The notes under the pieces are model-generated. The model was given only the letters and a program-made list of their open reading frames with translations, was not told the origin of the DNA and ran no database searches. Positions 5,071 through 62,464 of a DNA stretch of 64,000 nt are shown piece after piece (position 1 is the stretch's first letter; every line of letters starts with the position of its first letter). Source of the stretch: Bispira polyomma (lineage: Eukaryota). The translations under genes were made by a program, and so were the position numbers. The DNA lies in contig OZ287756.1 in the NCBI GenBank assembly GCA_965649765.1, forward strand, positions 63,860,001-63,924,000. Direction: 5' to 3'.

Positions 5071-5229
5071 ATGGAGCGATTATATAGTTTTTAAAGTTTA
5101 AAATTCATGACACTACTGTACATATCTGCTATGCTGGGAAAGGTCACCCCTACTAGTCGATTCATTTAATACAAAAAGTAAGGCGTAGTGTTTTTAAGTT
5201 CTAGCATTTAAAATATTCAGAAATGAAAT

Positions 5230-16270: not shown

Positions 16271-16969
16271 GTCAAAACAGGACGAAAGATCAAAAATTGA
16301 AACAAATTGATTTTTACAAAAATTGAAATAAATTGAATTTTTGTAGACCCAGCACTTTAATAAGTATAATAAATAATAGCAAGTGTCACATCATACTAGA
16401 ACAGTATTGTGTTATCAAGGTTCAGCAGTAGTTTGTGTTGTAATAGATATTTTAGTATTAATAGCATGCCCACTATGAATTCTGGAAAAATGGTCGCCCC
16501 TAGTAAATTATATAATTTCAGCTAGATTGTTTTAAATATAGATCATTTGCGATAGTATACATGCTTTAAATGCAATAATTGTAAGAATTCACCATAACAC
16601 TGCAAATACCCTTCTCTGTGTACTGTCTTAGACAATAATATCCCCATATATATGATTGTGTGTCCGGAAAGGGCTAGCTAGGTCAGTGCTCCCAGTCTTT
16701 TTTGTAAAACTATTCTTGTCTGGTTGACCTCTTCTCTAATTCATTGAAGATGCACTAATTAACCACAAGTTTTCCGCTAATTGTGCGGATCTCTCATTAC
16801 AAACAAATTTGTCTAAGAGGCAGTGCCACCATCTTAAATATTTGATCCCATCCAACTCCCCTACTTCCGCTGTGGTTTTAGCTATGCATATTCTGAGGAG
16901 CCATGTGCAGACAGAGTGGCCCATGATGTCTCACTTAACACCATTGCACAGGGGGGTGAGGGGGTTGTA

Positions 16970-17108
16970 AGTCCTTGAAAGGCGTTGGTGGTGAGTCCTT
17001 GAAAGGTGCTGCTGGTGAGTCATTGAAAGGTTCTGGTGGTGAGTCTTTGAAAGGTGCTGGTGGTGAGTCCCTGAAAGGTCATGGTAGTGAGTTTTTGAAA
17101 GGTACTGG
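16970..17108. repeat. 24-bp minisatellite, ~5.8 copies (agtccttgaaaggtgctggtggtg)
   Basis: Directly visible tandem units. Confidence 0.9.
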
Positions 17109-17229
17109 CTTTCACCGTTGCATCCTCTTGGGGACCATGATAGGTTCCTCGGTCTTGTCTCTGCCATCCCTACTGGGTAAAAAAAATTTCTAATTTTCCT
17201 TACCTTAATTTACAACTAATAATCAATTC

Positions 17230-20170
17230 TCTGTACATAGTTTAGTACGTAGAAATAAATTTATATATATCCCAACTGCTGTTTTCAATACAAGGTCAAA
17301 TAGTATGACTTACTTACTCAAGGTCAAAACCTTAAAGGCTTAAGACAATACACTGGTACATACACACCCTAATTCTGCAATATCGAAATTTACAATTAAA
17401 GATTTTGCAGGGTCATTGAATTTGCAGCTCTAGTTTGACGAGAGAAAATGGCAGAGTTTTGAATTTGTGTATATGTGTTTCTGTGCATTTAACCTCTATC
17501 TGTGTCTATGACTCAATATTAGCATGCAGCATACTGCCAAAGAAGTGATAGCTCCTGGCTAGGAATCATTATGAAATTATATAACTACTATTCTCTAAGG
17601 TGACTGCTAGGTAGACCCAACGGGGGTAGTGAGTTCAGTGCAGACTTTAAACTCTTTTATTAAAATCATTCTGTTTCTTTGAACTTTTCGTTTATTGGAT
17701 GGCAGTTGGCCTAGATTCTATAGCAATTCCCGCCAAAAGCCATAGAACCTCACTTCAAATTGAGAAATTGAAAGGGCAGAACGCCATTTTATAAACTTTT
17801 AGATTTTCTTCATCCCCCACTAGGGCTTCAACTCAATGATTACTATATTGATACATGCCTGCCATTTGGCTATCGCCACGGCAGTGCTATATTTCAAAGA
17901 CTCAGTGACGCAATTTGATTTATGATGATGTCACAAGGTTATGACGTTGTAAATTACATAGATGACGGCATTAGTTATGGTCTTCCTGATACAACTGGTG
18001 ACTCATTTGAAAAATTGAAAGAACTTTTCCAAAAATTAGGCTTTGCTATCAGTCAGAAAAAAGTGGTTCCACCTAGCACTAAAGTAGTCTGTCTTGGGGT
18101 TTTAGTGAACACAGAGGACTTTACTGTCTCCATACCGGACAATGAACTCGCTGAGATAAAAGAGATATGTCTCTCGTGGACTAACAAAAAAGTGTGCACC
18201 AGAAGACAGCTTTAATCACTACTGGGCTCATTATTATATATTTCGAAATGTGTGAGAACTTCACGAACTTATCTTAATAGAATGTTAGACACCCTGAGGG
18301 GTTCACAAAATGCTCAAGAAATTAAGCTTGATATAACATTTCATCAGGACCTTAGTTGGTTCAATACTTTTCTTACAAGTTTTAATGGTATGGCTTTCTT
18401 TGAACACAAACCAGTCAAAGAACAAGTTCACCTAGATGCATGTCTGCAAGGCCTGGGTGCCTGCAGCAACAATGAAGTCTATACCAAAGAAATTCCACTT
18501 GGCTATCGAAATTATACCATACTCCATCTCAAAATGGTTAATATACTAGTCGCAATCAGAGTTTGGAAAAATAAATGGGCTGGACGCAAATTGCTAATAC
18601 ACTGTGATTATCAAGCAGTTGTATCTATTCTAAAAAGCAGACAAAGAATTAAGAACTGTACACATCTTAGGCAAAAGAAATGTCACAGCAGACTTACTCT
18701 CCAGGTGGGCTATCACCCCTAATGATGAAGAAAAATTAAAGGGCCTTATGCAAAATCCTACTTGGATACAGGTCAGTGATGACCTTCTAGAAATAAATTG
18801 GTCAGTCTAGATTTAAATTTTTTCAGGCTCTCCAACCTGGGTGTCAAAGCTTGCAGAAAGAGCAGCCAATAGAGCACATCAGGCATTTCGTCCTTCTACA
18901 TATAAAGCATACACAGCCATGTTCAGAGTATTCTTAGCTTACTGCTGTTTTGCCAATATCTCAGTTTACAACATTACACCCACTTCACTCCTTGCCTTCT
19001 TGGAAGTACTAGTAGTGAACAATATTTCACATATTTCAGTATCAAATTACCTCGCTGCCATTAAGGCCAGCATGTCATTGTATGGGCTCCAGATTACAGC
19101 CTTTGCAGACCAGAGAATAAAATATTTTCAAAAAGCCCTGGTACTACAGAAACTATTTAAAGCCAAAATAAATGGCATTATTGATATTGATCTACTGCAA
19201 AATATTGCCCTTATCCGCGACTCCATGTATATGGGACAAATTTATAAAGCAGCTTATCTGCTTGGATTTTTCTCTTTCCTCAGAATTTCTAACTTTGTTC
19301 CACACTCACAAGCTACTTACTCACCACTGCACCAGTTAGCTAAGGCTAACGTTATTTTTGACCCTCCAGGTGCCCACATCATCATAAAATGGACAAAAAC
19401 TTTACAAGCTAGAAACACAATAAAGGTCATTAAAATTCCTAAAATAAAATTATTTGCCCGGTAACAGCTCTAAAAAATTTGCTGGCAATTACGCCTGGCC
19501 ATAACAATACTCCTTTGTTCCAAATTAAAAGTAATTCTTAATGGATCACCCTTACTGACACCAAAATATGCAGAAATCTTAAGGACATCTTGAATAGACT
19601 AAATAAATCACAAGCTAATATCACCTTCCATACTTTTAGGCGTTCTGAGGCGACAATGACCTTTAATGCCCATGTGCCCCTCCAAGACATTCAAAGTCAG
19701 GGCATCTGGTCATGTTAGTGTGTTTGGAGATATATCACTCAGGACCATGCCGCCTCTGACCAGGTAGCCCTAGCTCTTCAATCCCTGCTCAACCCTAGTC
19801 CTACTTCCTAGTTGGGCCTCCTTGGTGGTTATTGTCTTTTTACTATCATTTATATGCTATTATTTTTAAACTTTATTATATGCTTAAGGCCACCTTATAG
19901 GATAAACATTTGGTAACTTTAACTAGACTAAGGCCAGCAGAAATTGTGTAACTTGTTAAGGTTACCTTAAATTTTGGTCAACTTAAACTTTAACTTATGT
20001 TAACCTTAAACTATTAGTTGAAAATTCTTTTAAGGTGGCCTCAATTATTTCCAAAAAATAAATTTTAACCAATTGTAACTGTATGTGTAGTAATAGATTA
20101 AATATATATATCCCAACTGCTAGTCTTTCTTACAAGGTCAACTTTTAAAACTCAAAGTCAGGGCACTGTA
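17230..20170 (+). mobile_element. Internally deleted Ngaro-like YR retrotransposon (family B)
   Basis: RT remnant YYIDTCLPFGYRHG...YIDD (from ~17840), RNase H (HLDACLQGLG), YR 18827-19810 (FLRISN, HTFRRS). No methyltransferase between RNase H and YR; gag missing. Boundaries approximate. Confidence 0.88.
18841..19810 (+). pseudogene. Tyrosine recombinase of the family B element (frameshifted)
   Basis: ORF 18841-19464 plus out-of-frame continuation with HTFRRS and the VWRY tyrosine region. Confidence 0.85.
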
Positions 20171-31700: not shown

Positions 31701-34700
31701 ACTGTTGAAAGCGAGGGTGGCACCAGAACGTTGGAAGGTATGGAAGGTAATATTAGAATGTTGTAGTCCCAAACGCTGGAGTATGCTCGACAGGTTGGCT
31801 CGAACTCAAGTATCAGTCAATGGTATCCAGGTATTGTTCTTCTTAAACTGGAAAAGAGGGGAGTCTCTATGGCCTGGTGTAATGGCTAGGAAGGCCCTAA
31901 CTGCTGAAACTGGGCAGAGGGGGGAGGAAAGTAAGGCAGGAATTTTTATTACCTTGGCAGTATTTTTGGACTGCAGTGTCTTAGCCCACTTTATTATGAG
32001 GTGGAGGCCGGGAGGTGCGAAAATGACGTCACCTCTGGCCAATTGAACTAGGGGAGAAAAATGTGAAGCTGCATGGGGGACCAGCTTAGAGATCCTGAGG
32101 AAAGAGAAGAATGCTGTCAAATACAATGCCTTGAAAACCTGGCCCATGTACATTGTGTCACAGGATTGGATGATTTGGGTAAGAAGGGGGTATATCAATA
32201 ATTCTTTTTATTTTGCCCCTGAAGGGGCTATTAAGCAAGAGTGATTTTTGGTAATACCTGATTCTGGGGTCAGAGAAAGCAGAAACGTTTAGGCCAAATA
32301 ACGCCATCTTGGCTTTAATTGCAGAAAGGTAGTTTGAAATGGAGGAAGCAGAAGCGTGGTTAACCACTAGCGCTTCCAAAAATGATAATAATACAAGTGG
32401 GGAAATATGGTTGGTATTTATATGTGCAAAACAGCAATAAGCTAGGAAAATTCTAAACATGTTGGAATAGGCTTTCTCAGTGGAGGGTCTGAAGGCCTGG
32501 TGAGCCCTGTGTGATGCTTGCGGGGCTATCTGTCCGAGGTGAGAGGACACATCTACAATTAGATAGACCAATCTATTTTAAGCATACTATTACTGATTTT
32601 TACCCATTGTCGATTAGGGACTAGGCTTGTAAGTTTTTTATTTCTATCCTGGGTCAGTTTCCATCTGGACAGCAAATCTGCCACATGATTATCTCTACCC
32701 AGAATGTGAATGGTTCTTAAGCTGATGTCAACAGCAGCTATTTCCATAAAGATGTTTCTGGCTATAGCTGCGAGTGTTAAGTCTTTAGTTCTACCCGAAC
32801 CCAAGATTGTTACGACTGCTGCATTATCACACTGAATTACCAGTCTTTTGCCTGCCCATAGGGACTTCCAGGCCCGTACAGCTAATAATATGTTGAGCAT
32901 TTCTAAATGCACAATAATAAAGTCAAGGTAGCCCAGGGGAAGGGAATACTCATATACTTGGTCATTACACCTGCCCCCGAGTCCTTCAAGACAAGCATCC
33001 AATTGGATGCAGTCAGTGGTTGGGTCATGCTCGAAGAATGCAGTTCCATTGAACACAGGCAGAAATTTATTGAACCAGTTGATATCTTGTCTAAATTCAG
33101 TTGTGAGTGTGATTTTTTTGCTATTACCTGCTACTCTAAGGACGTCTAACATACGGTTTATGAAGACATGTGATACTCTGACACACTTTGAAACGTACAG
33201 TAGTTTACCTAGAAGTGATTGGAGTTCCCGTTTGGTACAACTTGGTTTTTTCTGCCAATCTTTAACTAGGGCGATGGTTTCTGCTAGTTTTTCTTGGGGC
33301 AGTGATACAGTAAAGTTTTCCGTGTCTACCAAGACCCCGAGACATGTAACTTTTGTACCAGGATATACTAGTTTCTTTTCACTTATTGCAAAACCTAGTT
33401 CTTGTAGCAAGTGGTGCAATGTATTAAATGAACGTCTGCTCTCTTGGGCGTTATCGTAACCGATTACGTCGTCTATGTAGTTAGTGACGTCATAACCCTG
33501 GGATTTCATAATGTATCTGACGCCATTGCTGAGGTGTTGAAAAATGGCCCTCCCATGACGAAATCCAAAGGGGAGGCAAGAGTCCACATAGTATTTGTCA
33601 AATTTGAGGCCTAGCAAGTGGAAGTCAGCGGGGTCCATCTTTACGTGACGGAACGCCCGACTGATGTCAATCTTATATATGTGAGTACCACGACCCAGGC
33701 GCCGAATTTTGCTGGTTACTGTGTCAATCGTGGGAAGTGTGAGTACAAAAGGTGTGTTTAAATATCTGTCCTTTGCTACAGTAGTGTTAACTGACTCACC
33801 GTGTGAATAACTTAAGTCAATAATAACCCGCCTGTGAGAGGCCCCCAGTTTTTCCCTCATCATAAATGGGGACACATGGAGGTTCTGTATGGGAGCATTA
33901 TCAAACGGCCCTAACATAGCCCCAAATTTAATTTCCTCTTTCAAATAGGCCTCAATGTCACTAGGGAAATCTACCGCTGATCTGTGGTTTTGTTCTACAT
34001 GGGAGAGAGGACTGTCTCGCTTAATGTCCATGGGGAAACCATATCTGACTAAAAAGGGTAGTTGGGAATCCCAATAATTATATTTTTTGAGGTATTTTTC
34101 CCAGACATCAGGTTTAAGTTCTGACTTGATCTCAATTTGAGGGCCTATAAAGTTGGGACATTTAGCTGAACTAATAATAGTATGTAACTCAATTAATGTA
34201 GCCTGTGAGGTAACCCCTTTATCTGACTGAAGAACCTCAATTTCACCTAATGGAATAAAGCCATACTTGTCTGTTGTCTGTGAATTCCATTGCTGGAATA
34301 TGGGGACATTATGGGCATCCCTTATAAGGTCCCTGTGTTTAGGTCTAAGTTGGAGTTCTAGATCATATTTGTCAGCCTCCAGTGTACTTGTTTTACCTAT
34401 GGGAGTTTTGGGTGAGCCCTTGCTTTTGCCTTAGCTGAGGCCTTTTGTTTCTTTCTCAGTATCAAGAGGTTTTGTTATGGGAATATTCCCATTGTCAATT
34501 ACACCATGTCCCACAGAAAGAGGGGAAAACCTATTGTATGCGGGGACAAAATCTTTGGCACCTTCTCGCAGGTGTGAAACAGGAGGAGGAGGCTTTGTAT
34601 AATAATGTGTTTTCACACCTTTTCCCCCATCCCCATTACTGCAAGTTTTTGTTGCTTTTCCCATACTGACAGATTTCACACCAATTATAGGGGAAGGGAC

Positions 34701-37700
34701 AATGGTACGTGATTTACCCCTAGCAACCACTTTGATTACCTGTTTGCTGACAGAGCTGTCAGACTGTCCTGAAAGGTTGGTAAAACATGCATGGTTAATA
34801 CTTTTTTGTGAAACAGTACTGTTTTTCATTGTTACATTACACATAGGAAATTTCACATTTTGGTTAGTATCTGAGTCGTGTGCACTGGGGGACATGTGTT
34901 TTCCCTGATTTTGTTTTGATTTACCATTTTTTAAAATGTCCGCACAGGATTTTTTTTTTAACCGAGCCCAGTCTGTCCTCCAGTGCGCACTGGCTTGAAT
35001 GTTAGCAAAAGTGTTATATACAATTCTACCATGAAATTGTTTTTCACTATACCTCTCAGTACAAAGTTCATTGTTCATTGTTTTATCATTGAAAACTATG
35101 TTTTCACTCCACCTCGTGCTTTTGTCAGAATAACCTTAATCACTATGACTTGATAAGGGCACTGCATTGCTGCAGTGCCTTACTCGTTTTTTGCATTTGT
35201 TCTGCAATCCTTTGCAGGGTGGGGAAACGACCGCCCATTCAATATACAATTACTACACACATGCAGATAAGTGGTTCTTTTAGTTTCATGGTCCCCTTTT
35301 TGGGGGCAAGTACACTTTTGGAAGAACCTGCATGGAGTACCCTTGTCATGACTTTTCCTGGAGGGGCCTTGTGTTTGACTAGAGTTTTGGCTGGAATTAA
35401 TTACCCGCCTAATTCTGTCGAGTTTATGGGACTCGTCCCATGACACCTTCCCCTCTTCCATTTTACAGGATAGAACTGAAATAAAACTGACTTTACACAT
35501 CCAAACTTGTGATTGCAAATGACAATATTAAAATAGTTGTTTAATAATCTACAGTTCTAAACTTCACTGGCTTCCTATTCACTGTAGAAAAATCCTGTTT
35601 AAAATGCATGTAACCATTTTTAAAGCTGTTGTCTCTCAACAGCCTCACTACCTCGCTACTTAGCTCTCCTTCAGCAGCCTTAAAAGGGGAAAAAGACTCT
35701 GTTTCCTCTAAAAACACACCAAGAGGGTTGGATTTAGAGCCTTCTCAGTCGTCGCCCCTATGTTATAAAACAGTCTTCCAGTTGAACTCAGACTGCTCAA
35801 TACACTTTCTGGTTTTAGGAAAAGGCTTTAACCTATCTCTTCAGGCTCGCCTATCCGCTGTAGTCCTTCTCTTAGGCGTTGACGCATCCATCCTTACGAC
35901 CTGGATATGTTTTTTCATATTTCTATTGGCTGATTGATTCTGATGTTGCACCGTGGAAGATACCTAGCATCAATAAGGCGCGTTAAAAATGCACAGTACA
36001 ATACAATACAATAGAAAAGTTAGCTTTGCAGTCTGGTAACTGAGGTGTTATATGTCAGTAGATAGACATATATCAGCAGACACTTGCTATCTGGGGTACT
36101 AGGTTTGTGCTCTTATCTATCATTTCTGCAAGGAAGAACAATCACTTTACGTAACCTTTAACCTATAAACTTTGGTCTTTAAAAAGTTCAAGCAATGTCA
36201 AAATGCTGTGAGTGTGTCCGTCAAACTTTTATGTTTATCTATCTTGCTCAACAAAAATTTCAACTCATTTGATTTAAAAACTTACAACATCTAATATAGA
36301 CTAGTTATGCATCTGCAAGTTTTAATATCCAACTTGTTTAGTTATGCTTTTCTTTTTTATCATGTTAAAATGAACATTAAAACTGCATTAACAAAACAGT
36401 AATATAGAGTAAAAAATCCTGGGGATGTTAGTTGCTGTCAATTTCACTACAAATATAAAATTATATACTAGTTAATGTGTACAATTTCCCATATATTCCA
36501 CAGAGTCCCAATGGCTGTCAGAAGAACACAAGATCTGGCGGTTACTGAATTTCTCAGTACATGAAACCTTTACAGGTGACAGTTTATCTATATGTTTTGG
36601 CTCCTCTACTACATCTATACAAAGTGTATTCTTACATAAGATTGTACTTTAACTTGATTTTAATGTTGCTATCAGGAATGTATATTGTGACTAGCAATTG
36701 TACTAATTTAGAGGATTTTACATAAATATTTTGACACTGGATCAAATAACACAAAGCAAAAGAAACGATAAAACAATGCTTTTCTATTGAATAGTTTAAT
36801 TTTTATTTTATGCACAAGCAGACACTTGGGTCCACATAATGAAATATTCCATTCATCTGACCAATTTATTTATGTCACCGGGAACGTTCAGATAACATTA
36901 TGATTCTACACATAGTAAATGGTTTCAGAACATAAAAAGCAACAAATCGTACACAGACTTTAACCATTAAAAATATTTTAACATTGAAAATGTTATTATA
37001 CTTCTATTTTAAGAATAATATTTAATGGATATTGTTGTGTTTCAGAATGTATAATTTTCAATTTGACATTGCTCAAATATAGCATAGAAATTTTACTAAA
37101 ATGGTGATAAAAAAGTAATTGCAATAACAGTCGTATAAAAGAAAAAATGTTGATCACTTATCTTTTTTTTTTCTTCTTTTTTTTTTGTGAGCACAATAAG
37201 TTTATTTCCATTTATATATATACAGAGTGTAAAGATTTTACATACATTTTATACAAAATATAAAATGTAAATATACTAACTGCATTTCCTCTTCATTTTT
37301 GTAAAGAATTTATTACTTTTTATTTTTATTTTCTTTCTCTACAATTTATCGTAATTTATAGTTGGAATACTGTTTAAGTGAGCATATAGATCTAAACCTA
37401 GAAGTTTGAATTCACATGTTGTGAATATTATATTAATATTAGATGAATTGATATACTAGCTACACAATACAACACCTAAAAGAAATCAGCCCAGCATAGA
37501 TTTAACAAGAGCTCATTTACAAGTCAGTAGCTTTTCATTTATAAACTCTTTATGATGTAATTTAGGAGACCACTTACTCTATGATAGTTTGAAACAGTGT
37601 CAATTAGGTCCATAAGTTGACATTGGTAATCGTCACCAATCAGCCAATTTTTTTAAAAAAATAAACATTTATTATATAAAAGTTATACAAAATGTACGTA

Positions 37701-46091: not shown

Positions 46092-46157
46092 AGAGATAGA
46101 TTATATATGTCTCAATAGAGTCAATTTCTTAGCTGTAGGCAATCTGTTTTAAAATTT

Positions 46158-46201: not shown

Positions 46202-47539
46202 TGCAAAGATAAAAATGATCATAAAAGATGGATTTCAATACATACGTTGATTTGTCAGAGGTATTTTGTATGTAGTGTCAATTTTCATGGTAACCTGCTC
46301 TTCTGCAGAGACAACCTGGGTAAACGTTTAATGAACTTGATGTTTCTGTTATGTAATTGACTTACTTAGCAATAACCACGATCTGTGTTTGGCCTGAACC
46401 TGGGATAAAAACATGGTGATTCACTGTAGTAGGGTCCTGTTCCCATGGCATTCTGTGGGTACTACAAGAACAACCTAATGCAGATTAAATTTCATTTAGG
46501 TTTTTCTGGTTGGTTGAAATGGTTGTCTAATCACTCAGTTGCCATTTCATCAGTTCTAGTTCATGTATGCTTCTAGGGATTCAATTACAAGGTCGGATAT
46601 TATCAATCTTAATACATGTAGTTAAAACAAGTAACTTTTTTACTTAATACAAATTTTGATTTGAAGTCACAAATACTAGAATGAATATTTTCAAAAGTTT
46701 GAAACAGACATACATTATAGATACTTCCCTTTCTGGAACATATACTGCCTTCAAAATGAAAAACTAAATTAAGTAACGACATTGTTTTTTAAAATAAAGG
46801 TATTGACTCTTTTGGTGAATTGTTGACTTCTATAGCCAGATGCATTCAATTCCAATGGGACAAAGTTACAGCATACACAAAAGCAGGTTATGTTAGGCAC
46901 AAATGTGCAGAATTGTTTTTTTTTTAATTTTTAAATGTCAACAATTTAAAAAGATTCATTTTCCCGAACAATACTTATCCCAAAATAGTTATTTATCTTT
47001 ATGAACAATTTATTAGATAACCATGAGTAATCAAAATTATGGATAAACGAAAGAAACTACAATAAGAGATGTTTACTGTAAAATTTTTAAAACAGTACTT
47101 CCAACAAACAGACATACAGTTGTCATTTTTGAAATAGTAAAGGTTAAGTAAATAGCCACTTTAATGTTTATAACATCTGACTAGAACTATCTTCAAATCA
47201 TCTCAGGATAAGCGAATTTGAGATTTAACATAAAAAAGATAATTTAAACATAAACTTAATTATTGATATATGGAGAACATTTTTTATTAAGAACTTAAGT
47301 TCTCAGAAGCCTCTTAAAACAGGCTTTTGTGTTATATGTTTTTTGGTGGTTTTTCTCCTCACTTTTAGGGTTGAAAAATATTATTGTTGTAATTTTTTTG
47401 GTCTACTTATATGTGGTATTTTGTACTGTGTATTTGTGTACAGGACTAAATTATTGTTTTATAAAACTAGTGTTGTGTGTATTGGAATTGCCTATGACAT
47501 TTCATTCATGTCATGAAATGTACAAAGTATTAATGATTA

Positions 47540-49000
47540 AATTAAAAAGAAATCTGTTATCAGATTTATAAAAGATACACATTTGGATGTAATATTACTT
47601 CATGAAACCTACAATAAGGAAGAAGTTCTTTTGAGTTCAGATGGACAAATGAATGGGGTAATTATATCATTTATGCTCATGGTACAAATCATGGCAAAGG
47701 GGTAATGGTATTATTAAAAAGAGTTATTGATGTTGAAATTTAGAGTTGTTATGAAGATAAAGATGGACGGTTCATTTTATGTGTTTTAACTTTAAATGAC
47801 AAATTATATTGTTATCAACATACATGCCCCGGATAAGCAAAAGGATCAAGTTTAATTTTGAAGGATTTCAGTGTTTCCCCCCAGATACAAAATATAAATG
47901 TAGATAAAAAAATTATACTGGGAGGTGATTGTAATGTCATGCAAATGTTTAGCTAAACAGGGTCCCTTGAATTCTTCAACAAAATTAAAGTACAATATGA
48001 CATGCAAGATATTTGGAGACTATTAAACCATGTTAGTAAAGGGTTTACATGGCGACAAAAATGGCCTATAATTCAATGTAAGTAAGACTTCTGGTTAAAC
48101 TAAACCAATATTTAGGATATAGTTACAATGGTTGATATCACATATGGTGTTTTTCTGATCATTCGATTATAATAATTGAAACTTTAAGATATAGTAGAAA
48201 AAACAAGGTGGTAATGGATTTTGGAAGTTCAATTGTTCTTTGTTCTTTATTGGATGATTGGGACTTTATAAATCAGATTTCAAATGCTATAAATGTGTAG
48301 AGTAAGAAGTACAAAAACATTGAAGATAATAGAATTTTGTGGGACATTATAAACTAAGAAATCAGGAAGTTTACTCTAAATCAAACCTCTAAAAAGAAAC
48401 AAAAAATTACAAACACTGAAACAGAACTAATAAGAAAATTAAATGAAATTGAACTCAAATTGGAGCAAAATCCATTGCCACACCTTGTTGTAAATTAGGC
48501 TAAAGTTTGTGGTACTGATTCGTAAAACTATGCATTTGAATATGGTAAACTTTCTGTGGCTGTGTCAAGCTATTATTACATTGACTGAAAAAAGACTAAG
48601 ACTAAAAAAATAAAATTTTCGTCCAATCTCGTTATTAAATGTAGATAAAAAATTAGATTAAAGGCACCCTTTTACAACTGAAAAATGTTTTGCCATATAT
48701 TATCAATGAAGATTAAACATGGCTTGTTAGAAAGAGCAATATATTTGATAGTATCTAAATTATACAAAATTTGATGGACTACACAAAACAAAACAATTTA
48801 GAAGGAATTTTGCTTTATATTGATTTTGAAAAAACAATGGACAGCATTGTAGATTTTTGCATTAAGCTGTGAAAAATATTAAATTTTGGACCCAAATTGA
48901 TACAATGGATGAAATGTTTTTAATAAATATAATAATATTTCTAGTTTTATAATTAAAATTGGAAAAACATTGATTCAGGAAGGTGCTAGAATTCCAGATA
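47540..49000 (+). mobile_element. Degraded L1/Tx1 ORF2 fragment (donor copy)
   Basis: Same endonuclease and RT remnants as 27020-28480. Confidence 0.75.
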
Positions 49001-49831
49001 TGCAAACAGTTAGGGCCAAACAGCTAACTAGTAGAAATTGATACCCTGGACTTGTAAAATTGTGTTAGAGACAATCTTTGACAAAATTTTACATTTAAGA
49101 AATAAAAGAAACCTGACTGACCACCGAGAATTTCGAAGAGTTTTTCTGAGGTCCTCCAAACCCCATGGTGAACGTCTAGCAGAGTTAAATTTTGGTACAC
49201 TTTTACACTAGCTCCTAAATGGAATATCGCACAAGAGCCAAAATATTAAATGTTAATGGTTGGACTTTGTCAAATAATAACCTGTGGAAGGCCATTAGAA
49301 AATATTTAAATAAAGACAGTGTATGTATTATTATGAGAGATAGACCCGCAAGGGCTAGCCAGATCAGTGCTGCCAGTAATTTGTTTAGTCCAGGGTCTTA
49401 ACCCCTAAGCTAATTGGTGAACTTTGCACTAATTGACCCCTGTCTTCCCGCCGTTTTTGTTGGGATATCACTTTTAGTATTGAAGTCCAAAGGGCGACAC
49501 CGCCATTTTTATTTTTTACTTTATTTTGTTTGTGATTTTAATTTTCGTTAAGTCTCTGGAACTATTCATGTTGTGCTATCTAACTATATTTGGGATTGAT
49601 CACACAGACGTTCTGGACACTATAGATGAAGTCACGACTACAGTGGTGTTTTGTACTCATACTTTGAGTCTTGTGTATATGCTTGCTTGAAATCTGATAA
49701 AGGGACATATCCCCTCATTATACTAGCATATTAAGATCTAGTCTACTAATATATCTCTACATCTAAATTAATAGTCAATAGTATATACACAGGTATCAAA
49801 ACGCGAGTGTTTTTATATTATTCAAAGAAAA

Positions 49832-50695
49832 ATGGCTCCGAGAAAAACATATGATTGCCTTAAATGTGGCACAAACCATCAGAAACCTATCGACAGTAAC
49901 TGTAAATTAGCTACACTGCTTGCTGACGACGAGGATGTGCCGAACTCTGCTTCGACTAGTGAAAATCAAAGTCCTGGTGATATTAATATCCAGATACTAA
50001 ATGAACTACGTGCTCTAAGTGGTCGAATGACCAAAGTGGAACGCCAGGTAATTCACAGTCAGCATGGAGCCCCGACTTCTCCAAGTCGGGGGACATCTGT
50101 AATGACCAGTCCTGCACCCCGACCTGCTGCACTGCTGCCTGATCCGGAAGATGTCCTCGTACCCACCATAGACACACTTAGATCCTCACAGAGCCTACAG
50201 ACTGCCGTGGACACACGTCTCAAGGAGTTAGCTATGATAAATGAGACAGGTACGTTCAAGTCCCAGAGGGGGGGTAGTGATACGGTCTGGGTGAGGAAAC
50301 TGGTCCCTTGGCAACAGAACTTTATTCTAGGTGGACATAGTAAATCTAGTCTCTCGTATGACTCATTAACAATGCCCCAATGGGTCGCTGGTTTTTCAAA
50401 CATCATTAGAGAAGAAAGTAATGTTGCAACCAAAAATTTAATGTATTTATCAGACCTCATGGAGGACGCTCATGACTTCTCCTGGAGTGTGGCCAAGGGA
50501 AGTCATGCAGTTCTATCCTGTAAAATGGAAGAGGGGAAGGTGTCATGGGACGAATCCCATAAACTTGACAGAATTAGGCGGACTCATGCCCAGAGGGTAA
50601 CTAATTCCAGCCAAAACTCTAGTCAAACACAAGGCCGCTCCAGGAAAGTCATGACACGGAAAACTTTACTGTATCACTGCCCCAAGAAAAACTAG
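49832..50695 (+). CDS. Gag-like ORF1 of the family A element (C-terminus lost by deletion)
   Basis: N-terminal C-x2-C-x3-H-x6-C, FKSQRGG, W.QNFIL, QWVAGF..II, YLSDLMEDAHDFSW..AK..HAVL; homologous to 61694-62464. Confidence 0.8.
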   Translation: MAPRKTYDCLKCGTNHQKPIDSNCKLATLLADDEDVPNSASTSENQSPGDINIQILNELRALSGRMTKVERQVIHSQHGAPTSPSRGTSVMTSPAPRPAALLPDPEDVLVPTIDTLRSSQSLQTAVDTRLKELAMINETGTFKSQRGGSDTVWVRKLVPWQQNFILGGHSKSSLSYDSLTMPQWVAGFSNIIREESNVATKNLMYLSDLMEDAHDFSWSVAKGSHAVLSCKMEEGKVSWDESHKLDRIRRTHAQRVTNSSQNSSQTQGRSRKVMTRKTLLYHCPKKN

Positions 50696-51407
50696 CAGAA
50701 ACCATCTCCCTAGTTAAAGATTGGCAGAAAAAACCAAGTTGTACCAAACGGGAACTCCAATCACTTCTAGGTAAACTACTGTATGTTTCAAAGTGTGTCA
50801 GAGTATCACGTGTCTTCATAAACCGTATGTTAGACGTCCTTAGAGTAGCAGGTAATAGCAAAAAAATCACACTCACAACTGAATTTAGACAAGATATCAA
50901 CTGGTTCAATAAATTTCTGCCTGTGTTCAATGGAACTGCATTCTTCGAGCATGACCCAACCACTGACTGCATCCAATTGGATGCTTGTCTTGAAGGACTC
51001 GGGGGCAGGTGTAATGACCAAGTATATGAGTATTCCCTTCCCCTGGGCTACCTTGACTTTATTATTGTGCATTTAGAAATGCTCAACATATTATTAGCTG
51101 TACGGGCCTGGAAGTCCCTATGGGCAGGCAAAAGACTGGTAATTCAGTGTGATAATGCAGCAGTCGTAACAATCTTGGGTTCGGGTAGAACTAAAGACTT
51201 AACACTCGCAGCTATAGCCAGAAACATCTTTATGGAAATAGCTGCTGTTGACATCAGCTTAAGAACCATTCACATTCTAGGTAGAGATAATCATGTGGCA
51301 GATTTGCTGTCCAGATGGAAACTGACCCAGGATAGAAATAAAAAACTTACAAGCCTAGTCCCTAATCGACAATGGGTAAAAGTCAGTAATAGTATGCTTA
51401 AAATAGA

Positions 51408-52410
51408 TTGGTCTATCTAATTGTAGATGTGCCCTCTCACTTCAGACAGATAGCCACGCAAGCATCACACAGGGCTCACCAGGCCTTTAGACCCTCCACT
51501 GACAAAGCCTATTCCAACATGTTTAGAATTTTCCTAGCTTATTGCTGTTTTGCACATATAAATACCAACCATATTTCCCCACTTGTATTATTATCATTTT
51601 TGGAAGTGCTAGTGGTTAACCACGCTTCTGCTTCCTCCATTTCAAACTACCTTTCTGCAATTAAAGCCAAGATGGTGTTATTCGGCCTAAACGTTTCTGC
51701 TTTCTCTGACCCCAGAATCAGGTATTACCAAAAATCACTCTTGCTTAATAGCCCCTTCAGGGCCAAAATAAAAAGAATTATTGATATACCCCTTCTTACC
51801 CAAATCATCGAATCCTGTGACACAATGTACATGGGCCAGGTCTTCAAGGCATTGTATTTGACAGCATTCTTCTCTTTCCTCAGGATCTCTAAGCTGGTCC
51901 CCCATGCAGCTTCACATTTTTCTCCCCTAGTTCAATTGGCCAGAGGTGACGTCATTTTCGCACCTCCACCTCATAATAAAGTGGACTAAGACACTGCAGT
52001 CCAAAAATACTGCCAAGGTAATAAAAGTTCCTACCTTACTTTCCTCCCCCCTCTGCCCAGTTTCAGCAGTTAGGGCCTTGCTAGCCATTACACCAGACCA
52101 TAAAGACTCCCCTCTTTTCCAGTTTAAGAAGAACAATACCTGGATACCATTGACTGATACTTGAGTTCGAGCCAACCTGTCGAGCATACTCCAACGCTTG
52201 GGACTACAACATTCTAATATTACCTTCCATACCTTCCTACGTTCTGGTGCCACCCTCGCTTTCAACAGTAATGTCCCTATTCAAGATATACAGAGTCATG
52301 GCACCTGGACGTCGGATTGCGTCTGGAAATATATAACCCAAGACCATAATGCTTCCCAGCAGGTGGTCTTGGCTTTCCAGACCCTCCTTTCACACTCCAC
52401 TACCACCTAG
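51408..52410 (+). pseudogene. Tyrosine recombinase of family A, copy 2 (disrupted)
   Basis: FLRISKL, HTFLRSGAT, HGTWTSDCVWKY; contains a frameshift and a TGA shared with copy 1. Confidence 0.88.
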
Positions 52411-54899
52411 TTGGGCTTTGGGGTTCTTTATTTACATTTATTCCTTACTATATATTATACAACTGTTAAATGTCTAAATAATAAAGGTGTGGGGCCACCT
52501 TACCACTCTACTTTTAAACCTTGAACTTAATTCACAACTTGTTATCAAATCTTAAGGGTAACCTAAACAAAAAGTTAAGGTCACCTTAAATTCAAAATCT
52601 TACACACTTTAAGCTAGCCTCATTGTAAAGTTAAGGCTACCTTACTTTTTCGAAATTTTATGGTCACCTTAAGTTGTTCACAATTTAAGGTCACCTTATC
52701 TTTAACTTAATTTTTCGGTGCCTTAATTTAAGGTCACCTTATCTCATCCACTTAAACTCGTAATGCTAGGGTGGCCCCTTTACTCAGTATATGAATAAAT
52801 GTTAGAGATTAATATAGTCATTAAAACTAATATCCCCACTTTGCCTCTTTTATTGTGTTCCAAATCAACTCCCAACTTCACTGGTAGGGCACTGAAACTC
52901 ATTGATCAAGTGATCATGTAATTGAGGTAGAAAAGTATAAATGGTCCAGTGTTGTTTTTGATTTTTTAAATTTTGATTTTCCCCAATATGATTTTTATTT
53001 AACCTTTTTCAACAAAGTTTAAAGACCCTGGGATGGCGAGGGTAGCAACCCTCAATCAGGGGTTAATAATACCATCACACACAGTATGATATATTGGAAA
53101 AATAAAAAAAGATTCAAACATTCTTTTAAAAAATAACAAAAAATCCGAATAACATTTGCAAACTACTCATTTCCATCTGCATCAGAAAAAAATACAACAA
53201 AACAACTACAATGTATTTTTTTTAATTAAAAGGTATGCACATGTGTAACGTGAGCACATTAATAATGAGTTGAATTTGGATATTTATAGCCTGCTTTAAT
53301 GTGGTCACTGATAACACATATATTTGGTTCCAATACAAAGTAATATACAGTTGCTTGGGAACTAAAAAATTATGACATAAAATGACGATTGAATCAAACG
53401 ATAAGTGTTGGTTATGTTGTCTTTATAAAAAGTCTCTGATACACTTGTTTTAATATTGTCAACACTCCCAAAATATTATCACTCAGTCTTGTTGTAAATG
53501 TGTTACCGGTTCATCAAATCTTGAGATTGTTAATTATACAAGTATATAGGTGTATCTTTGCATGAAAATCTAGATTATGAAGTAACTCAAAATAACGCTC
53601 AGTAACTGGTGGGCGAGCACAAGGTGGATTAATATCAATTTAAACAATATGAAAATATTGGATTAAATTTTTTTTCCAAATTATATGAAATTGACATCAT
53701 ACCTATAACAGACTACTGTAGTGGTATATGGGGGGTTTTCACACTCAAATTATGTTAATAAATTCAGAATAAAGGATGTCGTTATTTTCTGGGTGTGCAT
53801 GCAAAAATCCCACTAAATGTATCGGATGGGCATGTAGGATACCTAAAACCAAAATTCAGAATGTATTGGAATATCATTAAGTTTTAAAATAGGCTTACTA
53901 GAATGGACAATGAGAGACTAACATATAAAATATTTGAACATGATCTTCAGAACATAACAAATAAAAGTTGGAGCGGAGACCTAAAAAACATTTTAGACCA
54001 GATAGTCTGGCAAGAAAAACTTCTCATAGGAGAAGACATTGATTGAAATACCGCAGAAAAGAAGCTTTTTTGTTTAAATGATCTCGAATGGCAAGAATCT
54101 ATATGTACCAAATCGAAATTAAGATTGTATGTTAAATTTGAAACTCATATTTATACAGAAGAATATGTATTACAGAATCTTTATGGAAATGAAAGGTCTC
54201 CCATTGTCCAATTAAGACCTGGAATACTGCCTCTAGCCATAGAAACTGGAAGCTGGTTTATATGCAGTCATAGACTGCTTCAACAAATCAGGTAAATTAA
54301 AACCTTTAAATTTTTGGCTTAATTGTTGTGTTACTATAAGAAATTATTTGATCTGGTCCAGATATAATCCATAGCATCCCAAAAGCGTAGATAAATACTA
54401 TAGATTCTAAAAATCTTACACATTCAGGTAATTTTACAAGTCCTACTTTATGTTGCGATTGTGAAACGTGCATCAATATACTCATTAATGCAGAAAAAGG
54501 TATACCAGGGGTATGTAAACAGATGTAGGATAAATTGTAAAGCCCACCTATTTTAAGTAAATATAATTTTGAAGAAAATGACTGGCAAAAACAGAAAACC
54601 TAGATATTGAACAAGATATTGAACATTTGTCGAGTATTGTTTTATTGTAAAAATATTTGGTTACATTTTGTTGATGATTACAATCATGTAATAAACTAAA
54701 TATATAAATTGACTAAAAGAGAGATAATGATAGGTTTTGAAATTGAAAATCTAAATTATATTAGCTATAAGAAAGAATTTAATTGTTTAATTCTGTTTGG
54801 AGTTTTGCTCGGGTAAGGGATTGGACATGGAAAAGTGAAGAAGAGGTTTTCAATCTCCTAGGAGTACCTTAAGTTTCAATGTGTGAACCCCCAACCCCG

Positions 54900-57326: not shown

Positions 57327-58295
57327 TTAAAACATTAATTTTTGAAAGGTAGTGGGTACTACACTCGAAGCTTTTGGAGTTGAATTTAGGTATGTCCACA
57401 CTGCATCACTCTTCCAATTTCCATGGGTTTTAATATTTTGCAAATTAACATTGCTGTCAAAAGCAAGAGAAGCACCGCTTCTACGAAATGTATGAAATCC
57501 AAAAGCTTTGGGAGAAAGTCCAATCTTAGTAATAGCCAGTTTAAGAAAAGATCCAGCTTTAAAGGCTGTAAGAGGTACTATACCAGCTTTAGTTTTAATT
57601 AAAAATAGAGGAGACTCTTCATGAGCAGAAATTTTTTTACACATTTGTCGAATTGCTTTTACCGGGCATATCAATTTGTCGGATAATAAAGGCAATTGTA
57701 CTACATGGTATTGATCTGATACGTGCATATTTTTTGCACAAGTCATTACAATATGTATACCTGGATTAACCCATATGAGATCAGTCCTAGTGGGAAATCG
57801 TGTCCTATCAAATTCCTTTACTGAATTTGGTACTAAGGAAGCAAGCCTAAAAAAGCCAAAATAAGCACTTAGAAAGAGAGCTACATATGTTTCTGCATTT
57901 AATAAACCTTGTATTGCTTTAATCAATTTTTTCAGTTGGTTTACGGTTAGGACACCCTTTACCTTAGGTCTGATTGGGGCATTGATCTTAACTGATTTTA
58001 TTAACATTTGCACTTTTCTAGAAGTAAGACCATTTTTAGGCCAATCAAAAAGCCCAAAGTAATGGGAGAGTCGACATGTGGTTGCTGATAGACGCAGCTC
58101 TGAGTCCTTGTTGAATGAGGTACTCTACATAGCAGACGAGAGTCCGTGGGCAGTGGGGAACTGTCAGCTGTAAGAAGGTCATGAAGGCCAGGAATAAGTT
58201 AAACGTCGAGTCATAGGATTTCCTGGTACGAGGTCTCAAGGCCGTAGGTATGCTCTCCATAGCTTGGTGTTTCAATCTCTCAGCCATTGATTTGC
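57327..58295 (-). pseudogene. Tyrosine recombinase of family C (frameshifted near 58040)
   Basis: FFRLASL, CAKN, HTFRRSGAS, HGNWKSDAVWTY: complete R-K-H-R-H-Y catalytic set. Confidence 0.9.
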
Positions 58296-61200
58296 CTAGA
58301 AACATATTACAAAGCAACGCAGTACTATGCTCTAGCATGTCATATGACATGTATTTTGGGCTTTAATGAGACTATAAATCTTCCACATTCTTATTCTGGT
58401 CTATGTTACAGGAATCTTTGTAATTTATAAATTTATATACATATACTTATGCTGTGATCTTTGAGCAATTATTACATAATTTATTTCATTATAATGACAC
58501 TATATATAAAAATTTGGCATTAACATGTCACCATGTATAGGTAACCAAGTACATTTATTCTTTAGGTAATTAACTGTTGAAATATTGACATCTTGATAAA
58601 CATGCCACCAAGACAAAATGTCTGCATAGACATTATCGACTTCTGGTATATGTAGCACCTGCAACTCAATATTGTGCGCAGCTACATAATACCAAGTTGT
58701 ACGAAGGCAGGCCATAAGCCATGGATGTTTAGCCTTTTTTGAGGTAAATAGCTGGACCACAGCAAGGTTGTCACACCACAGTGTAACTTTAGTATTCTAC
58801 CATTCATGAGTCCATAGCTTGAGAGCCAATAACATAATGGCTGCCTCAAAGTGGACAATAGATCTATAGTTTTTAACTGACATGGGGATATCTGCACTAT
58901 ACACTTGTCCATTAAAATAACCACCCACTTTCTCCAATGAAGCATCTACATATACTACATGATTAATGGGATTTTTAGTATGTATTTCCACTACCCCATT
59001 AAAAATCTCCAGAAATTGGTTAAACCATTGAATATCCTTAAAAAACATTTCCGGTAGTTTAATACTTCCTCTCATAGGAGCAGTACGTAAAACCTACCAA
59101 ATACGATTAATGAAGATACGTGCTGGTCGCACACATCGATGTATATAAAGGAGCTTTCCAGTCAGCCTCTGCAATTGGTTTCTAGTAGCAGTGTTTTTAC
59201 AAAGCCAATTTCTACATAACTCTTTTACTTCTTTAATTTTCTGACTAGGAATAGTTAACGTACCTGTACTGGCATTGATATTTATATCCAAACAATTAAT
59301 TACAGGAGCTGGAGATTCCAGCTTTTTACTATTAATAGGAAGGCCTAATTCTGTGAGCAGATTTTTGCTGATAAGAATTGCGAGTTAGCTACGTGGGGAG
59401 GAGCGACCCCAATAAAATCATCTAAATAATTCATTATCCAGACGTTACGTTGACGCAACGTTGACGTTACAGCGTCAGTACATAACTGGCAAGCGGCTGC
59501 TCCCGTATGAAACCCGAAGGGTAACCCTATATTGATATAAGTATTATCTTGCCATTGTAGGCCCAATACAGGATAGTTCTCTGGAGATCAATTTTATATA
59601 ATAACACTGTAGGACCATACATTCGAATTTTTTCAACCACTTGGTCAATAGTAGGATATTTTAAAGTGAAAGGTATATTATCATATACATCTATGGGGAC
59701 ACAACTATTTACACCCTGGCCTAAAGGCCATGACAGGTCCACTATTACCCTGGTACCCCCATCTGGCTTAGGCCTAGCCATGAGTGGAGAAAAGTGTATT
59801 TTCGAAAGGTTTACCTTTAATGGGTCCAATCATAGCCCTATGTTTTACCTCTACCTCAAAGTATTCGTTTACCCCTTTATGATTGTATAAAGCCGACTTA
59901 AGATTGGCCACAGAAGAATTAAAAACAAATGTACCATAATCAATATTTAAAGGGAAGCCAAATTGTATATATTCTCCCAATATTTCGAGTTGGTAGCACT
60001 TTAGCATCTGCCTCCAAGCTGGAATCTTAAGGCCAGAGGGAACTGTAATTCTTGCTCCCTTGTAGTTAGGTACACCCTTACTTTTAACTGCATTGTGAAT
60101 TGTATTTAACCACTTTACTGTTGGCTCGAATATAGTAGTGCAACTTGGTAAATTCAAACTTTTTGGAAGAGGAGCATGAGGGAGAAACCCAAAGTCACGG
60201 GGTTCAGTCACCATCTCCTTTTTTTTTCAATAAACCAGCTAGTAGCTTTAACTTTATTAAAATCATAATCATTATGATTAGCCAACGTGTGTACATTATG
60301 GACTTTTCTATTAAGGTGACTGCCATTCTGAATGTGAACATCATGATCACACGTGTTTTTACACATAGCATCCTGCCATATTTTATTTACACTGCTATTG
60401 TAGTATGATAGTACACTATGGTGTTCCATTTTTGTTTTACATCTACCACTGTTTATATTCTTCTCTGAACACCTGCTGTCAAAACAAGTTTTACCACCAC
60501 CCCATAAGTCCTTTACCCCTTGTGCAATTTCAAGAGACGATTCAAGTGTTGAACAAGGGTCAAGGTACTTATTATTGTTGCAGTATCTAGAACTTACCTG
60601 GCAGCAATTTAGTGCAACGTGTTCTAATGTACACGTAATTAGATAACTGTACCTATGGACCAAGGACGACAGGGTGTTCAGGTCATTAGAATCTACAGTT
60701 ATATTGGCCATACTAGTGTTATTGTTACTTACACCGACACATACGTTACTAGCTTTAACAAAAGTATAACTATTTCTGTCACTTGTACTAACTATGTGAC
60801 TAGTCACACAATAAACACTATTGCTAGAATTATTCTCTTGTGACATTAATAAATTAACATCGCTTCCATAAACTCTCTTATAAGAGCTCGATACATTTGT
60901 ATTCATTACTAAGTTGTCACTAAGTCTATCAACATTTGTTTTAGGACTATTAATATATTCCATTTTTTCAGCTAATACTTTGCACCGGGAAGACGTTTTT
61001 TCTGTATCATGATTTTTGTACATAAACACAGTGGCCAACAGGTTCAATTGGTTTCCCATATTACCCATATTAGGGTCTTTGTTACAACTGATACCATGGT
61101 CACGTTTTTTAACACGAGCACCTTGTTTTGGGCTAAACTCACTGGGCAACGGGTTCAAGGTGATTTTATAATTTCTAACACCTTCATTCAATCTATTTTT

Positions 61201-61693
61201 AGGCATATTATTACATGATTTGGTATAAACATACATACTATTAGAACGAGTATCATGTTGTAACCATTTACTATCAGTATTACAAATTTCTTGTCTAAAA
61301 ATTTTTGCACGTGGATTTAATTTAGTTTTATTACAAATACCTTCCTTATGATAATAATTGTGTCGTTGTAATTTAAGCCAAGGTTATTATAACTTTTCCC
61401 GCCGTTGTTAACTTTAGACACATTACAACTAATAGGGTTAAACTCGCTGCTCAGTTTTCTGTCCCTTACTATCATTTTTCATTCGCATACACTTGCAAGC
61501 GGGGTGATCATGCTTTTTGCCACGTGTCTCTTTGTAGCAGTAAGTGCAGTAGTGCTCATATTTGAAACCTTTGGACACGTGGTCCTTGTCTAGCTTACAG
61601 GTACCCTTATTAAACAAGGAGCAGACACGACTTTCTGTGTTCCTGTTTTCACTACTACCTGTACCACCGTTATAGGGAACCCTTTGGGCATTT

Positions 61694-62464
61694 CTAGCTC
61701 TGATTTTTTTCTATCAGTTCGATTTTGTCCCATGTGACCCGGCCTTTTTCTATTTCTTGAAGTACTGCAGCATGCGCTTTCTTAGCTTCTTCTAATCCCA
61801 ACTCGACAGCATCTTGCATTAAGCTAACGTGGTAATTAAGCATAACCTGCCTTTTCTCAAGATCACATTCCTCTAACACGCAACAAAGCAACTCCTGTGC
61901 CCATTGTATGGAAGACATTTCGTCGTATGTCGGTTGTTTGTTGGTATGAGCGACGGTGCAATAATCTTGGGGCCATGAGACCTGGACTTTTACTTTATGT
62001 ACACCCGCTCTATACCGGCCAGATTTTAAAGTGGAAGTATTTTTACCTTTATAGTCGAGACGTGAAGCTCCTTCGTAATCACGCAATCTCTTCTGAACTT
62101 CGGCTTGGATACGGGAGTCACTTTTGAGGACTTCAAAAGAGGGTAGCTTTGGAACTGCACTCTCTGGAACAGCCGTTTTCTGGCCCATAGCCTTTGGTGA
62201 ACTTTGGGCCGATGGAAGCACCGAAATTTCATTTAAACTCACTCTGTCCTGATTATTTAATTGCACACCCATACCTTTCCCCACCATTAATAGTTCAGTT
62301 AATTTGTCCGACATGGACTTATTGTGCGTATTTGTTATTTCAGCTTCTTCACCCTCCACATTATTAGTAACAATATCAGTGTCTGGTACATTATTTTCAC
62401 TTCTTTCAACAGTACTTTTATTCGTACTTTTACTGTTCTTGTTAACTCCCGGTTTAGGCCCCAT
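61694..62464 (-). CDS. Gag-like ORF1 of the family C element
   Basis: LKSGRYR, WPQDYC, YDEMS..QW, LMQDA..LG...AKKAHAAVL..IE.G...W. Confidence 0.78.
   Translation of the reverse strand: MGPKPGVNKNSKSTNKSTVERSENNVPDTDIVTNNVEGEEAEITNTHNKSMSDKLTELLMVGKGMGVQLNNQDRVSLNEISVLPSAQSSPKAMGQKTAVPESAVPKLPSFEVLKSDSRIQAEVQKRLRDYEGASRLDYKGKNTSTLKSGRYRAGVHKVKVQVSWPQDYCTVAHTNKQPTYDEMSSIQWAQELLCCVLEECDLEKRQVMLNYHVSLMQDAVELGLEEAKKAHAAVLQEIEKGRVTWDKIELIEKNQS

What the first reader, a model, noticed from the sequence alone, without database searches (positions are those of the whole stretch)
50240..51440. Conserved phase-matched splice sites predict that Ngaro-like elements express YR as a spliced Gag(N)-YR fusion
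Seen: all three families with a visible YR start have a YAG acceptor directly before it, each in phase 1. Family A: ctaattgtag|at at 51426/51427 (also in copy 1). Family B: tttttttcag|gc at 18826/18827. Family C: atgtttctag|gc at 58296/58295 (-). Both gag genes that retain this region have a phase-1 donor at the same protein position, just before KSxR: family A acag|gtacgt at 50249/50250 (after codon 139) and family C aaag|gtaaaa at 62047/62046 (-). In families A and B the first in-frame ATG lies downstream of the conserved AFRPST..AY segment, so YR has no suitable start of its own. Inference: a subgenomic mRNA removes gag-C and pol and joins the Gag N-terminus to YR, which could explain both YR translation and its packaging.
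Basis: partly seen in the sequence, partly recalled or inferred. Interest (0 to 1): 0.72.

Follow-up and report, generated by a model that had tools for sequence, protein, structure and literature searches.

The report
Spliced Gag–recombinase fusion in Ngaro-like retrotransposons
These jumping genes appear to make their integration enzyme by splicing the front half of their structural protein onto it, a route predicted here from splice signals conserved across many relatives but not yet confirmed in RNA.

Summary
All five reported splice sites are present and in phase 1. The signal extends well beyond this window. In 62 anchorable Gag proteins, 59 keep a Gly at the donor position, followed by K/R/T in 59 of 59. 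It is preceded in 58 of 59 by a residue whose codon can end in A, the footprint of MAG|GTRAG. In 36 YR relatives whose ORF call runs far enough upstream, a phase-1 acceptor model wins in 29 (0 of 1000 shuffles reached the score), mostly 18–21 codons before the A[FL]RP motif. The pol–YR spacing varies (6, 16, 204 nt, differing frames), which argues against the −1 frameshift proposed in a review. Predicted folds place both sites at structural boundaries, and the retained Gag part is modelled as a self-associating coiled coil. Missing: RNA junctions, DNA of relatives, and any fusion protein in databases. Family C has its own AUG, family A's acceptor is weak, and all window copies are broken. Verdict: a probable spliced Gag(N)–YR mRNA (about 0.78); the packaging role is more speculative. 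Not found in nine literature searches.

The parts
49832..50249 (+). Family A gag, predicted exon-1 coding part (139 codons + 1 nt): zinc knuckle, coiled coil, linker, conserved helix pair
50247..50255 (+). Family A predicted splice donor CAG|GTACGT, phase 1
   Evidence: rank 1 of 83 GTs; footprint in relatives
50250..51426 (+). Predicted intron in copy 2: gag C-half joined by an internal deletion (about 50653) to RT-C/RNase H; about 3.2 kb in an undeleted element
51409..51428 (+). Family A predicted acceptor, phase 1, 6 nt after the pol stop; weak score
51427..52410 (+). Family A tyrosine recombinase coding region (broken by a frameshift and a stop); first ATG at codon 31
32535..32570 (-). Family A copy 1 acceptor (32553/32552), same sequence at the AG
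32559..34430 (-). Family A copy 1 pol (RT, RNase H-like; ends without a methyltransferase domain)
35158..35192 (-). Gag end in copy 1: in-register A AAA AAC heptamer, 6-nt spacer, hairpin; candidate -1 frameshift signal for gag-pol
   Evidence: z -3.8, 0 of 200 shuffles for the 81-nt stretch
18809..18828 (+). Family B predicted acceptor, phase 1, 16 nt after the pol stop
18827..19812 (+). Family B YR (broken); this copy lacks gag
62047..62464 (-). Family C gag, predicted exon-1 coding part (basic N-terminus, no zinc knuckle)
62041..62049 (-). Family C predicted donor AAG|GTAAAA, phase 1
   Evidence: rank 4 of 114
58294..58313 (-). Family C predicted acceptor, phase 1, 204 nt after the pol stop
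57327..58295 (-). Family C YR (frameshifted), with its own in-frame ATG 3 codons after the acceptor

Best explanation
These are decayed Ngaro-like retrotransposons (gag, RT/RNase H, YR, no methyltransferase). The unspliced RNA serves as genome and gives Gag, and probably Gag-Pol by a -1 frameshift at the gag end (inferred). A subgenomic mRNA is spliced from a phase-1 donor in mid-gag (after about 140 codons) to a phase-1 acceptor at the start of YR, removing the Gag core, the C-terminal zinc fingers and pol. It encodes a protein of about 465 aa (arithmetic): Gag N-terminus (coiled coil plus a conserved helix pair) fused to the full recombinase. Shown: the sites, their phase, their conserved footprints, their positions at fold boundaries. 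Inferred: that splicing happens, that this donor pairs with this acceptor, and that the coiled coil ties YR to Gag assemblies.
For: Donor: 59 of 62 anchored Gags (of 66) have the Gly; next residue K/R/T in 59 of 59 (the residues with A-N-G codons, apart from Met); previous residue compatible with an A-ending codon in 58 of 59, while 18 and 29 of 59 are incompatible at the two positions before. On a 52-row tree that position changes 16 times but leaves the compatible class once (8 of 16 and 12 of 17 changes at the neighbours). The footprint spans two deep clades with different Gly-to-KS spacing. Both DNA examples use GGT, and A uses the rare ACG (8 of 107 Thr codons). Acceptor: phase-1 model best in 29 of 36 upstream-extended YRs, mean 4.64 vs shuffles 1.91+-0.50, 0 of 1000; phases 0 and 2 not above null; best offsets -18..-21 in 30 of 36, matching -21, -21, -20 in the window. 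Model-free: [TPASILV][GDE] there in 31 of 36, and 17 of 20 after de-replication at 45%, vs mean 0.15, max 0.56 in 34 control windows. Fold: in the Gag model the Gly lies 3 residues after helix 126-144 and before the helical core; in the YR model a confident helix begins 3 residues after the acceptor, the best match is Cre (Z 13.2, rmsd 5.9, 148 aligned, model 6-156 vs Cre 21-314), and the first Met at 31 would cut one and a half helices. Gag-N 30-150 modelled as a trimer: score 0.62, best control 0.08, pLDDT at least 57, runs agree in at least 40% of contacts; the mark was reached by 21 of 30 solved pairs and 0 of 23 single chains in microbes, 17 of 29 and 0 of 30 in eukaryotes; this three-copy job is outside the calibration.
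Against: No RNA evidence. No Gag-YR fusion among 150 YR and 64 Gag hits, nor in a search of longer proteins; the hits look like unspliced ORF calls, so this is weak. Relatives were seen only as proteins, so GT/AG was not read in their DNA. 28 of 84 anchored YR calls begin at -16..-18, 18 of them with 'MA', start codon unknown, and C has a real ATG there. 48 of 84 anchored and 66 of 150 unanchored YR hits could not be tested. 5 of 46 comparably variable Gag columns pass the same A-ending filter, the donor column among them, so that test alone is modest. The A acceptor is weak, with stronger out-of-phase AGs 19 and 23 nt downstream; the C donor is outranked. No branch point was found at a usual distance in B or C. 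The -21..-18 window was chosen.
Confidence: 0.78

Rival explanations
1. The acceptor is real, but YR is made without the Gag N-half: from a leader or other donor, or an internal promoter, starting at its own AUG about 17 codons before the RP motif.
For: C has ATG-G at -17 and three upstream ATGs; 28 of 84 YR calls start at -16..-18, 18 with 'MA'; other good donors exist (62274, 60597, 33799).
Against: A and B have no ATG until codon 31; only 2 of 36 extended relatives have an internal Met at -21..-13; a non-coding first exon would not need phase 1, yet phase 1 is preferred; it leaves the donor footprint in Gag unexplained.
Confidence: 0.12
2. YR is made as Gag-Pol-YR or Pol-YR by a -1 ribosomal frameshift in a short pol/YR overlap, as proposed for Ngaro by Poulter and Butler 2015.
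For: Quoted in PMC13003380. Family A does overlap in the -1 frame by about 6 codons.
Against: B is in the same frame behind two stops; C is 204 nt downstream with a stop in the YR frame inside the spacer; no slippery heptamer lies in the A overlap; no stable structure at the A junction (z +0.96), whereas the gag end has both signals. Fungal Ngaro YR is in-frame or shifted in all groups (PMC3783388).
Confidence: 0.04
3. No splicing: the Gly-Lys motif and the hydrophobic-Gly pattern reflect protein constraint or chance in AT-rich DNA.
For: GK is a plausible linker motif; the A acceptor and C donor are not outstanding; 5 of 46 columns pass the codon filter.
Against: The YR upstream pattern lies where reading frames are closed by stops in the window copies (5-24 codons upstream); it is phase-specific and positioned; no other route gives A or B an intact first helix.
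Confidence: 0.06

Closest known systems
Ngaro-like YR retrotransposons (order DIRS)
   Same: gag, RT/RNase H, YR on one strand, YR after RNase H, no methyltransferase.
   Different: The only expression model found in print is a -1 frameshift for YR; here splicing is predicted. Split direct repeats could not be shown in these decayed copies; no SGNH hydrolase ORF was seen.
MLV SD' RNA and P50/P60 (PMC10496198, passages)
   Same: A donor inside gag joins the Gag N-terminus in frame to a downstream integrase portion; the product is packaged.
   Different: P50 has only the last 116 aa of a DDE integrase and is accessory; here the whole tyrosine recombinase would be made this way, apparently as its only route in families A and B.
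Drosophila errantivirus env, idefix subclade (bioRxiv 10.1101/2023.08.03.551782, passages)
   Same: The third ORF is expressed from a spliced subgenomic RNA, with its start supplied by a Gag peptide.
   Different: The product is an envelope protein and the leader is called a peptide; here it is about 140 aa with folded parts, fused to the integrating enzyme.
Plant Ty1/Copia shGAG splicing (PMC5580714, abstract and outline)
   Same: Conserved alternative splicing sets the ratio of retrotransposon proteins.
   Different: There splicing makes Gag alone; here it removes half of Gag and all of pol to reach the last ORF.

Membership tests
Ngaro-like retrotransposon | gag, RT/RNase H and YR ORFs in that order on one strand | tested here: met
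   RVT_1, RT_RNaseH (below cut-off) and Phage_int(_SAM) matches (below cut-off); layout; YR model matches Cre
Ngaro-like retrotransposon | No methyltransferase domain after RNase H | tested here: met
   pol stops at the RNase H end; YR begins 6, 16 or 204 nt later
Ngaro-like retrotransposon | Split direct repeats A1-ORFs-B1A2B2 | tested here: inconclusive
   None above null in A or C; one 76-80 nt direct repeat (17220-17299 / 20066-20141, score 63 vs null max 34) around B; copies are old and rearranged
Ngaro-like retrotransposon | RT/RNase H groups with reference Ngaro elements in a tree | not testable with these tools
   No named reference sequences were available; hits carried no names
DIRS1-like / PAT-like | Methyltransferase domain after RNase H | tested here: not met
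   No coding room between RNase H and YR; feature per PMC4157794
DIRS1-like | Inverted terminal repeats with an internal complementary region | tested here: inconclusive
   No inverted terminal match above null, but the termini are not defined
U2-type spliced subgenomic mRNA | GT donor and YAG acceptor in matching phase, conserved across families | tested here: met
   DNA for 2 donors and 4 acceptors; protein footprints in relatives
U2-type spliced subgenomic mRNA | Junction present in RNA | not testable with these tools
   No transcript data; no fusion protein among hits

The most novel reading that the evidence does not exclude
Across at least two deep clades of these elements, the essential integrase is a spliced Gag(N)-YR chimera whose trimeric Gag coiled coil co-assembles with full-length Gag and so delivers the recombinase to the cDNA. 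Annotated Ngaro 'ORF3' proteins would then be missing about 140 N-terminal residues, and one RNA would use frameshifting for pol and splicing for YR.
Probability: 0.5. Interest if true: 0.85.

Novelty: new variant of a known kind. Interest (0 to 1): 0.74.

Why it matters
How YR retrotransposons translate their third ORF and bring the recombinase to their cDNA is untested; the one proposal found in print is a frameshift. This finding names exact junctions that RNA-seq can confirm or reject at once. If right, it changes the protein that should be cloned for biochemistry of these eukaryotic Cre-like recombinases, corrects repeat-library annotations, and offers a reason why gag could influence Ngaro insertion preference (ORF1 loss coincides with changed targeting in Cafeteria, PMC8547959; the link is my inference).

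Tried and rejected
Search for longer YR relatives (fusions): none among 739 candidates; cross-search of Gag and YR hit sets found no fusion. Two scans of prokaryotic genome contigs for stray DNA copies found none. Names and accessions of the protein hits stayed unknown, so their hosts and DNA are unchecked. Gag fold searches gave nothing clear (best Z 4.5; no E<=0.001; PDB sequence search), so 'capsid-like core' is not claimed. PDB sequence search with the YR alignment: none. Rfam: no match in the window. A possible zinc knuckle upstream of family C gag was dropped: C-like relatives align from 62464. Five YR hits joined in frame to RT/RNase H pieces have different junctions and are read as deleted copies, not a conserved Pol-YR fusion. 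The deletion in copy 2 ends in short microhomology, not at the splice sites, so it is not a retrotransposed spliced copy. The LAP2alpha paper concerns an acceptor near DIRS1 gag, not YR.

Full report
Setting. The window is AT-rich eukaryotic DNA (29-44% GC) with intron-containing sulfotransferase genes and five pieces of YR retrotransposons: family A twice (49832-52410 + and about 31570-35480 -), B (about 17820-19812 +), C (62464-57327 -) and a YR fragment at 1-700. All are broken by stops, frameshifts or deletions. The order is gag, RT/RNase H, YR, with no room for a methyltransferase, which fits Ngaro-like elements as described in PMC4157794 and PMC9210276 (passages). Terminal split repeats could not be shown and no reference tree was possible, so 'Ngaro-like' rests on gene layout.

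Observation. The acceptors lie 21, 21 and 20 codons before the Arg of A[FL]RP, although they are 6, 16 and 204 nt from the pol stop. The AG therefore tracks YR, not pol. With a rough splice model built from recalled frequencies, the A donor is the best of 83 GTs in leader and gag, and the B and C acceptors are the best of 21 and 22 nearby AGs. The C donor is 4th of 114 and the A acceptor 3rd of 22. Two likely host acceptors in the window also have short pyrimidine tracts (judged by eye). Copy 2's 1,177-nt interval is a deleted form; copy 1 lacks the donor region; B lacks gag. Only family C holds both sites with an apparently undeleted 3,751-nt interval.

Donor in relatives. Two searches gave 64 Gag relatives. 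With the window's two, 62 of 66 could be anchored on the Ser of KSxR; 59 of the 62 have a Gly 4 or 7-9 residues before it. A phase-1 donor MAG|GTRAG forces Gly, an A-ending codon before it and an A-N-G codon after it. Observed: K 50, R 6, T 3 after it, and only 1 of 59 residues before it that cannot be coded with a final A, against 18 and 29 of 59 at the two positions further up; background before other glycines is 18%. After de-replication at 50% identity the count is 0 of 14. On a quick tree of 52 rows (those of at least 160 aa) the position changes 16 times and leaves the compatible class once. The two clades, A-like and C-like, are far apart and share the site. Limits: 5 of 46 equally variable columns pass the same filter, and a Gly-Lys linker could be kept for protein reasons. 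Both available DNA examples use GGT (34 of 81 Gly codons in these ORFs) and A uses ACG (8 of 107 Thr codons).

Acceptor in relatives. A profile search gave 2,400 YR relatives at E<=0.001; the best 150 were examined. 84 could be anchored and 36 extend at least 22 residues upstream. These look like gene-caller ORFs that run into non-coding DNA, so an acceptor should appear as T-rich residues, an N-Y-A codon, then a G-starting codon. A phase-1 model scored best in 29 of 36 (shuffles: mean 15.9, max 25); mean score 4.64 against 1.91+-0.50, 0 of 1000 shuffles; phases 0 and 2 were not above null (852 and 153 of 1000). Best offsets were -18 to -21 in 30 of 36. Mean pairwise identity is 34%. A model-free count gave 31 of 36, and 17 of 20 after de-replication, against at most 0.56 in 34 control windows (window chosen). 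Against this: 28 of the 84 calls start at -16 to -18, 18 with 'MA'; the start codon cannot be read from protein, and C has a true ATG there, so some families may have their own start. Among the 36 extended proteins only 2 have an internal Met in -21 to -13.

Structure. In a Gag model of relative P0002 (mean pLDDT 77.7) the order is zinc knuckle, long helix 40-75, disordered linker, helices 119-144, the donor Gly at 147, a loop, a helical core 168-266 and zinc fingers. The splice would keep everything up to the helix pair. No known fold matched the core. In the family B YR model a helix with pLDDT above 90 begins 3 residues after the acceptor; the best match is Cre, aligned from model residue 6 to Cre 21 (Z 13.2, rmsd 5.9, 148 aligned). 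Starting at Met31 would remove the first helix and half the second. Three copies of Gag 30-150 were modelled as a coiled-coil trimer: score 0.62, best control 0.08, pLDDT at least 57, runs agreeing in at least 40% of contacts; calibration 21 of 30 pairs and 0 of 23 single chains in microbes, 17 of 29 and 0 of 30 in eukaryotes, on two-copy jobs. This supports self-association of the retained part; it does not show packaging.

Mechanism. Most likely the full-length RNA gives Gag and, through a -1 frameshift, Gag-Pol: copy 1 has an in-register A AAA AAC, a 6-nt spacer and a hairpin at the gag stop (z -3.8), and 15 of 28 complete Gag relatives have KN in their last 16 residues; family C shows no such structure (z 0.02). 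A spliced RNA gives Gag(N)-YR. The sites and footprints are shown; the splice, the pairing and the role of the coiled coil are inferred. The printed alternative, a -1 frameshift from pol into YR (Poulter and Butler 2015, seen only as quoted in PMC13003380), fits A's overlap but not B (same frame, two stops) or C (204-nt gap), and A's overlap has no slippery heptamer or stable structure. PMC3783388 reports the YR frame as variable in all fungal Ngaro groups (passages), as expected if frame to pol is irrelevant.

What is missing. No transcript data could be searched. No fusion protein was found. No DNA of relatives was obtained, and the hits' names and hosts are unknown.

Novelty. Nine full-text searches and passages of PMC7192593, PMC9341512, PMC6681497, PMC8547959, PMC4157794, PMC3783388, PMC13003380, PMC9210276 and PMC13465315, plus two of three parts of PMC4495291, showed no report of spliced YR expression. 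Other listed papers were seen only as search listings. The primary Ngaro paper (Goodwin and Poulter 2004), the 2015 review, Repbase entries and all supplements were not seen and could hold an earlier remark. The logic has precedents in MLV P50 and idefix-type env (passages) and Copia gag splicing (abstract and outline), so I rate it a new variant of a known kind. Confidence in the spliced fusion 0.78; interest 0.74.

Noticed in passing
window 26073-35634 vs 46808-53896: The copy-1 segment is an inverted, circularly permuted duplicate (97-98% identity) of 46808-53896, opened inside gag and flanked by a 149-bp direct repeat (26073-26221 / 35486-35634, 99%). It includes decayed LINE-like DNA, so it is larger than the element; it suggests re-insertion of a DNA circle, or an assembly artefact.
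   Followed up: partly
window 35158-35192 (-): Slippery heptamer plus hairpin at the gag stop: candidate -1 frameshift signal for gag-pol; KN near the end of 15 of 28 complete Gag relatives.
   Followed up: partly
window 52576-52741, 31230-31395, 19885-20043: Clusters of the palindrome TAAGGTNACCTTA just after YR in families A and B (16 matches with up to 2 mismatches in the window vs 5.0+-2.1 expected); 52560-52700 folds well (z -4.2). Possible recombinase-binding or RNA structure sites.
   Followed up: partly
window 49350-49377, 26650-26671 (-), 16669-16696: A 28-nt motif shared by the 5' regions of families A and B; possible terminus, promoter or priming element.
   Followed up: no
window 34431-35135 (-) and 60208-61383 (-): Long, low-complexity reading frames of 234 and 391 aa between gag and RT, unrelated to each other by tblastn; probably a variable N-terminal part of pol. 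60597 holds the strongest donor-like GT among the element regions scored.
   Followed up: no
window 42906-44165 (-): 419-aa ORF resembling a LINE ORF1 by eye, with a C-terminal NADAR domain (E 1e-37), upstream of a 784-aa endonuclease/RT-like ORF at 39435-41789 (-).
   Followed up: no
window 3863-5086, 10484-11140 (-), 44157-46107: Three host sulfotransferase-like genes (Sulfotransfer_2 match for two of them), with short-tract acceptors.
   Followed up: partly
window 16939-17130: 24-nt tandem repeat, about six copies, inside the 5' region of family B.
   Followed up: no
YR hits P0017, P0066, P0089, P0094, P0114: RT or RNase H pieces joined in frame to parts of YR, each at a different point; read as internally deleted copies.
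   Followed up: partly
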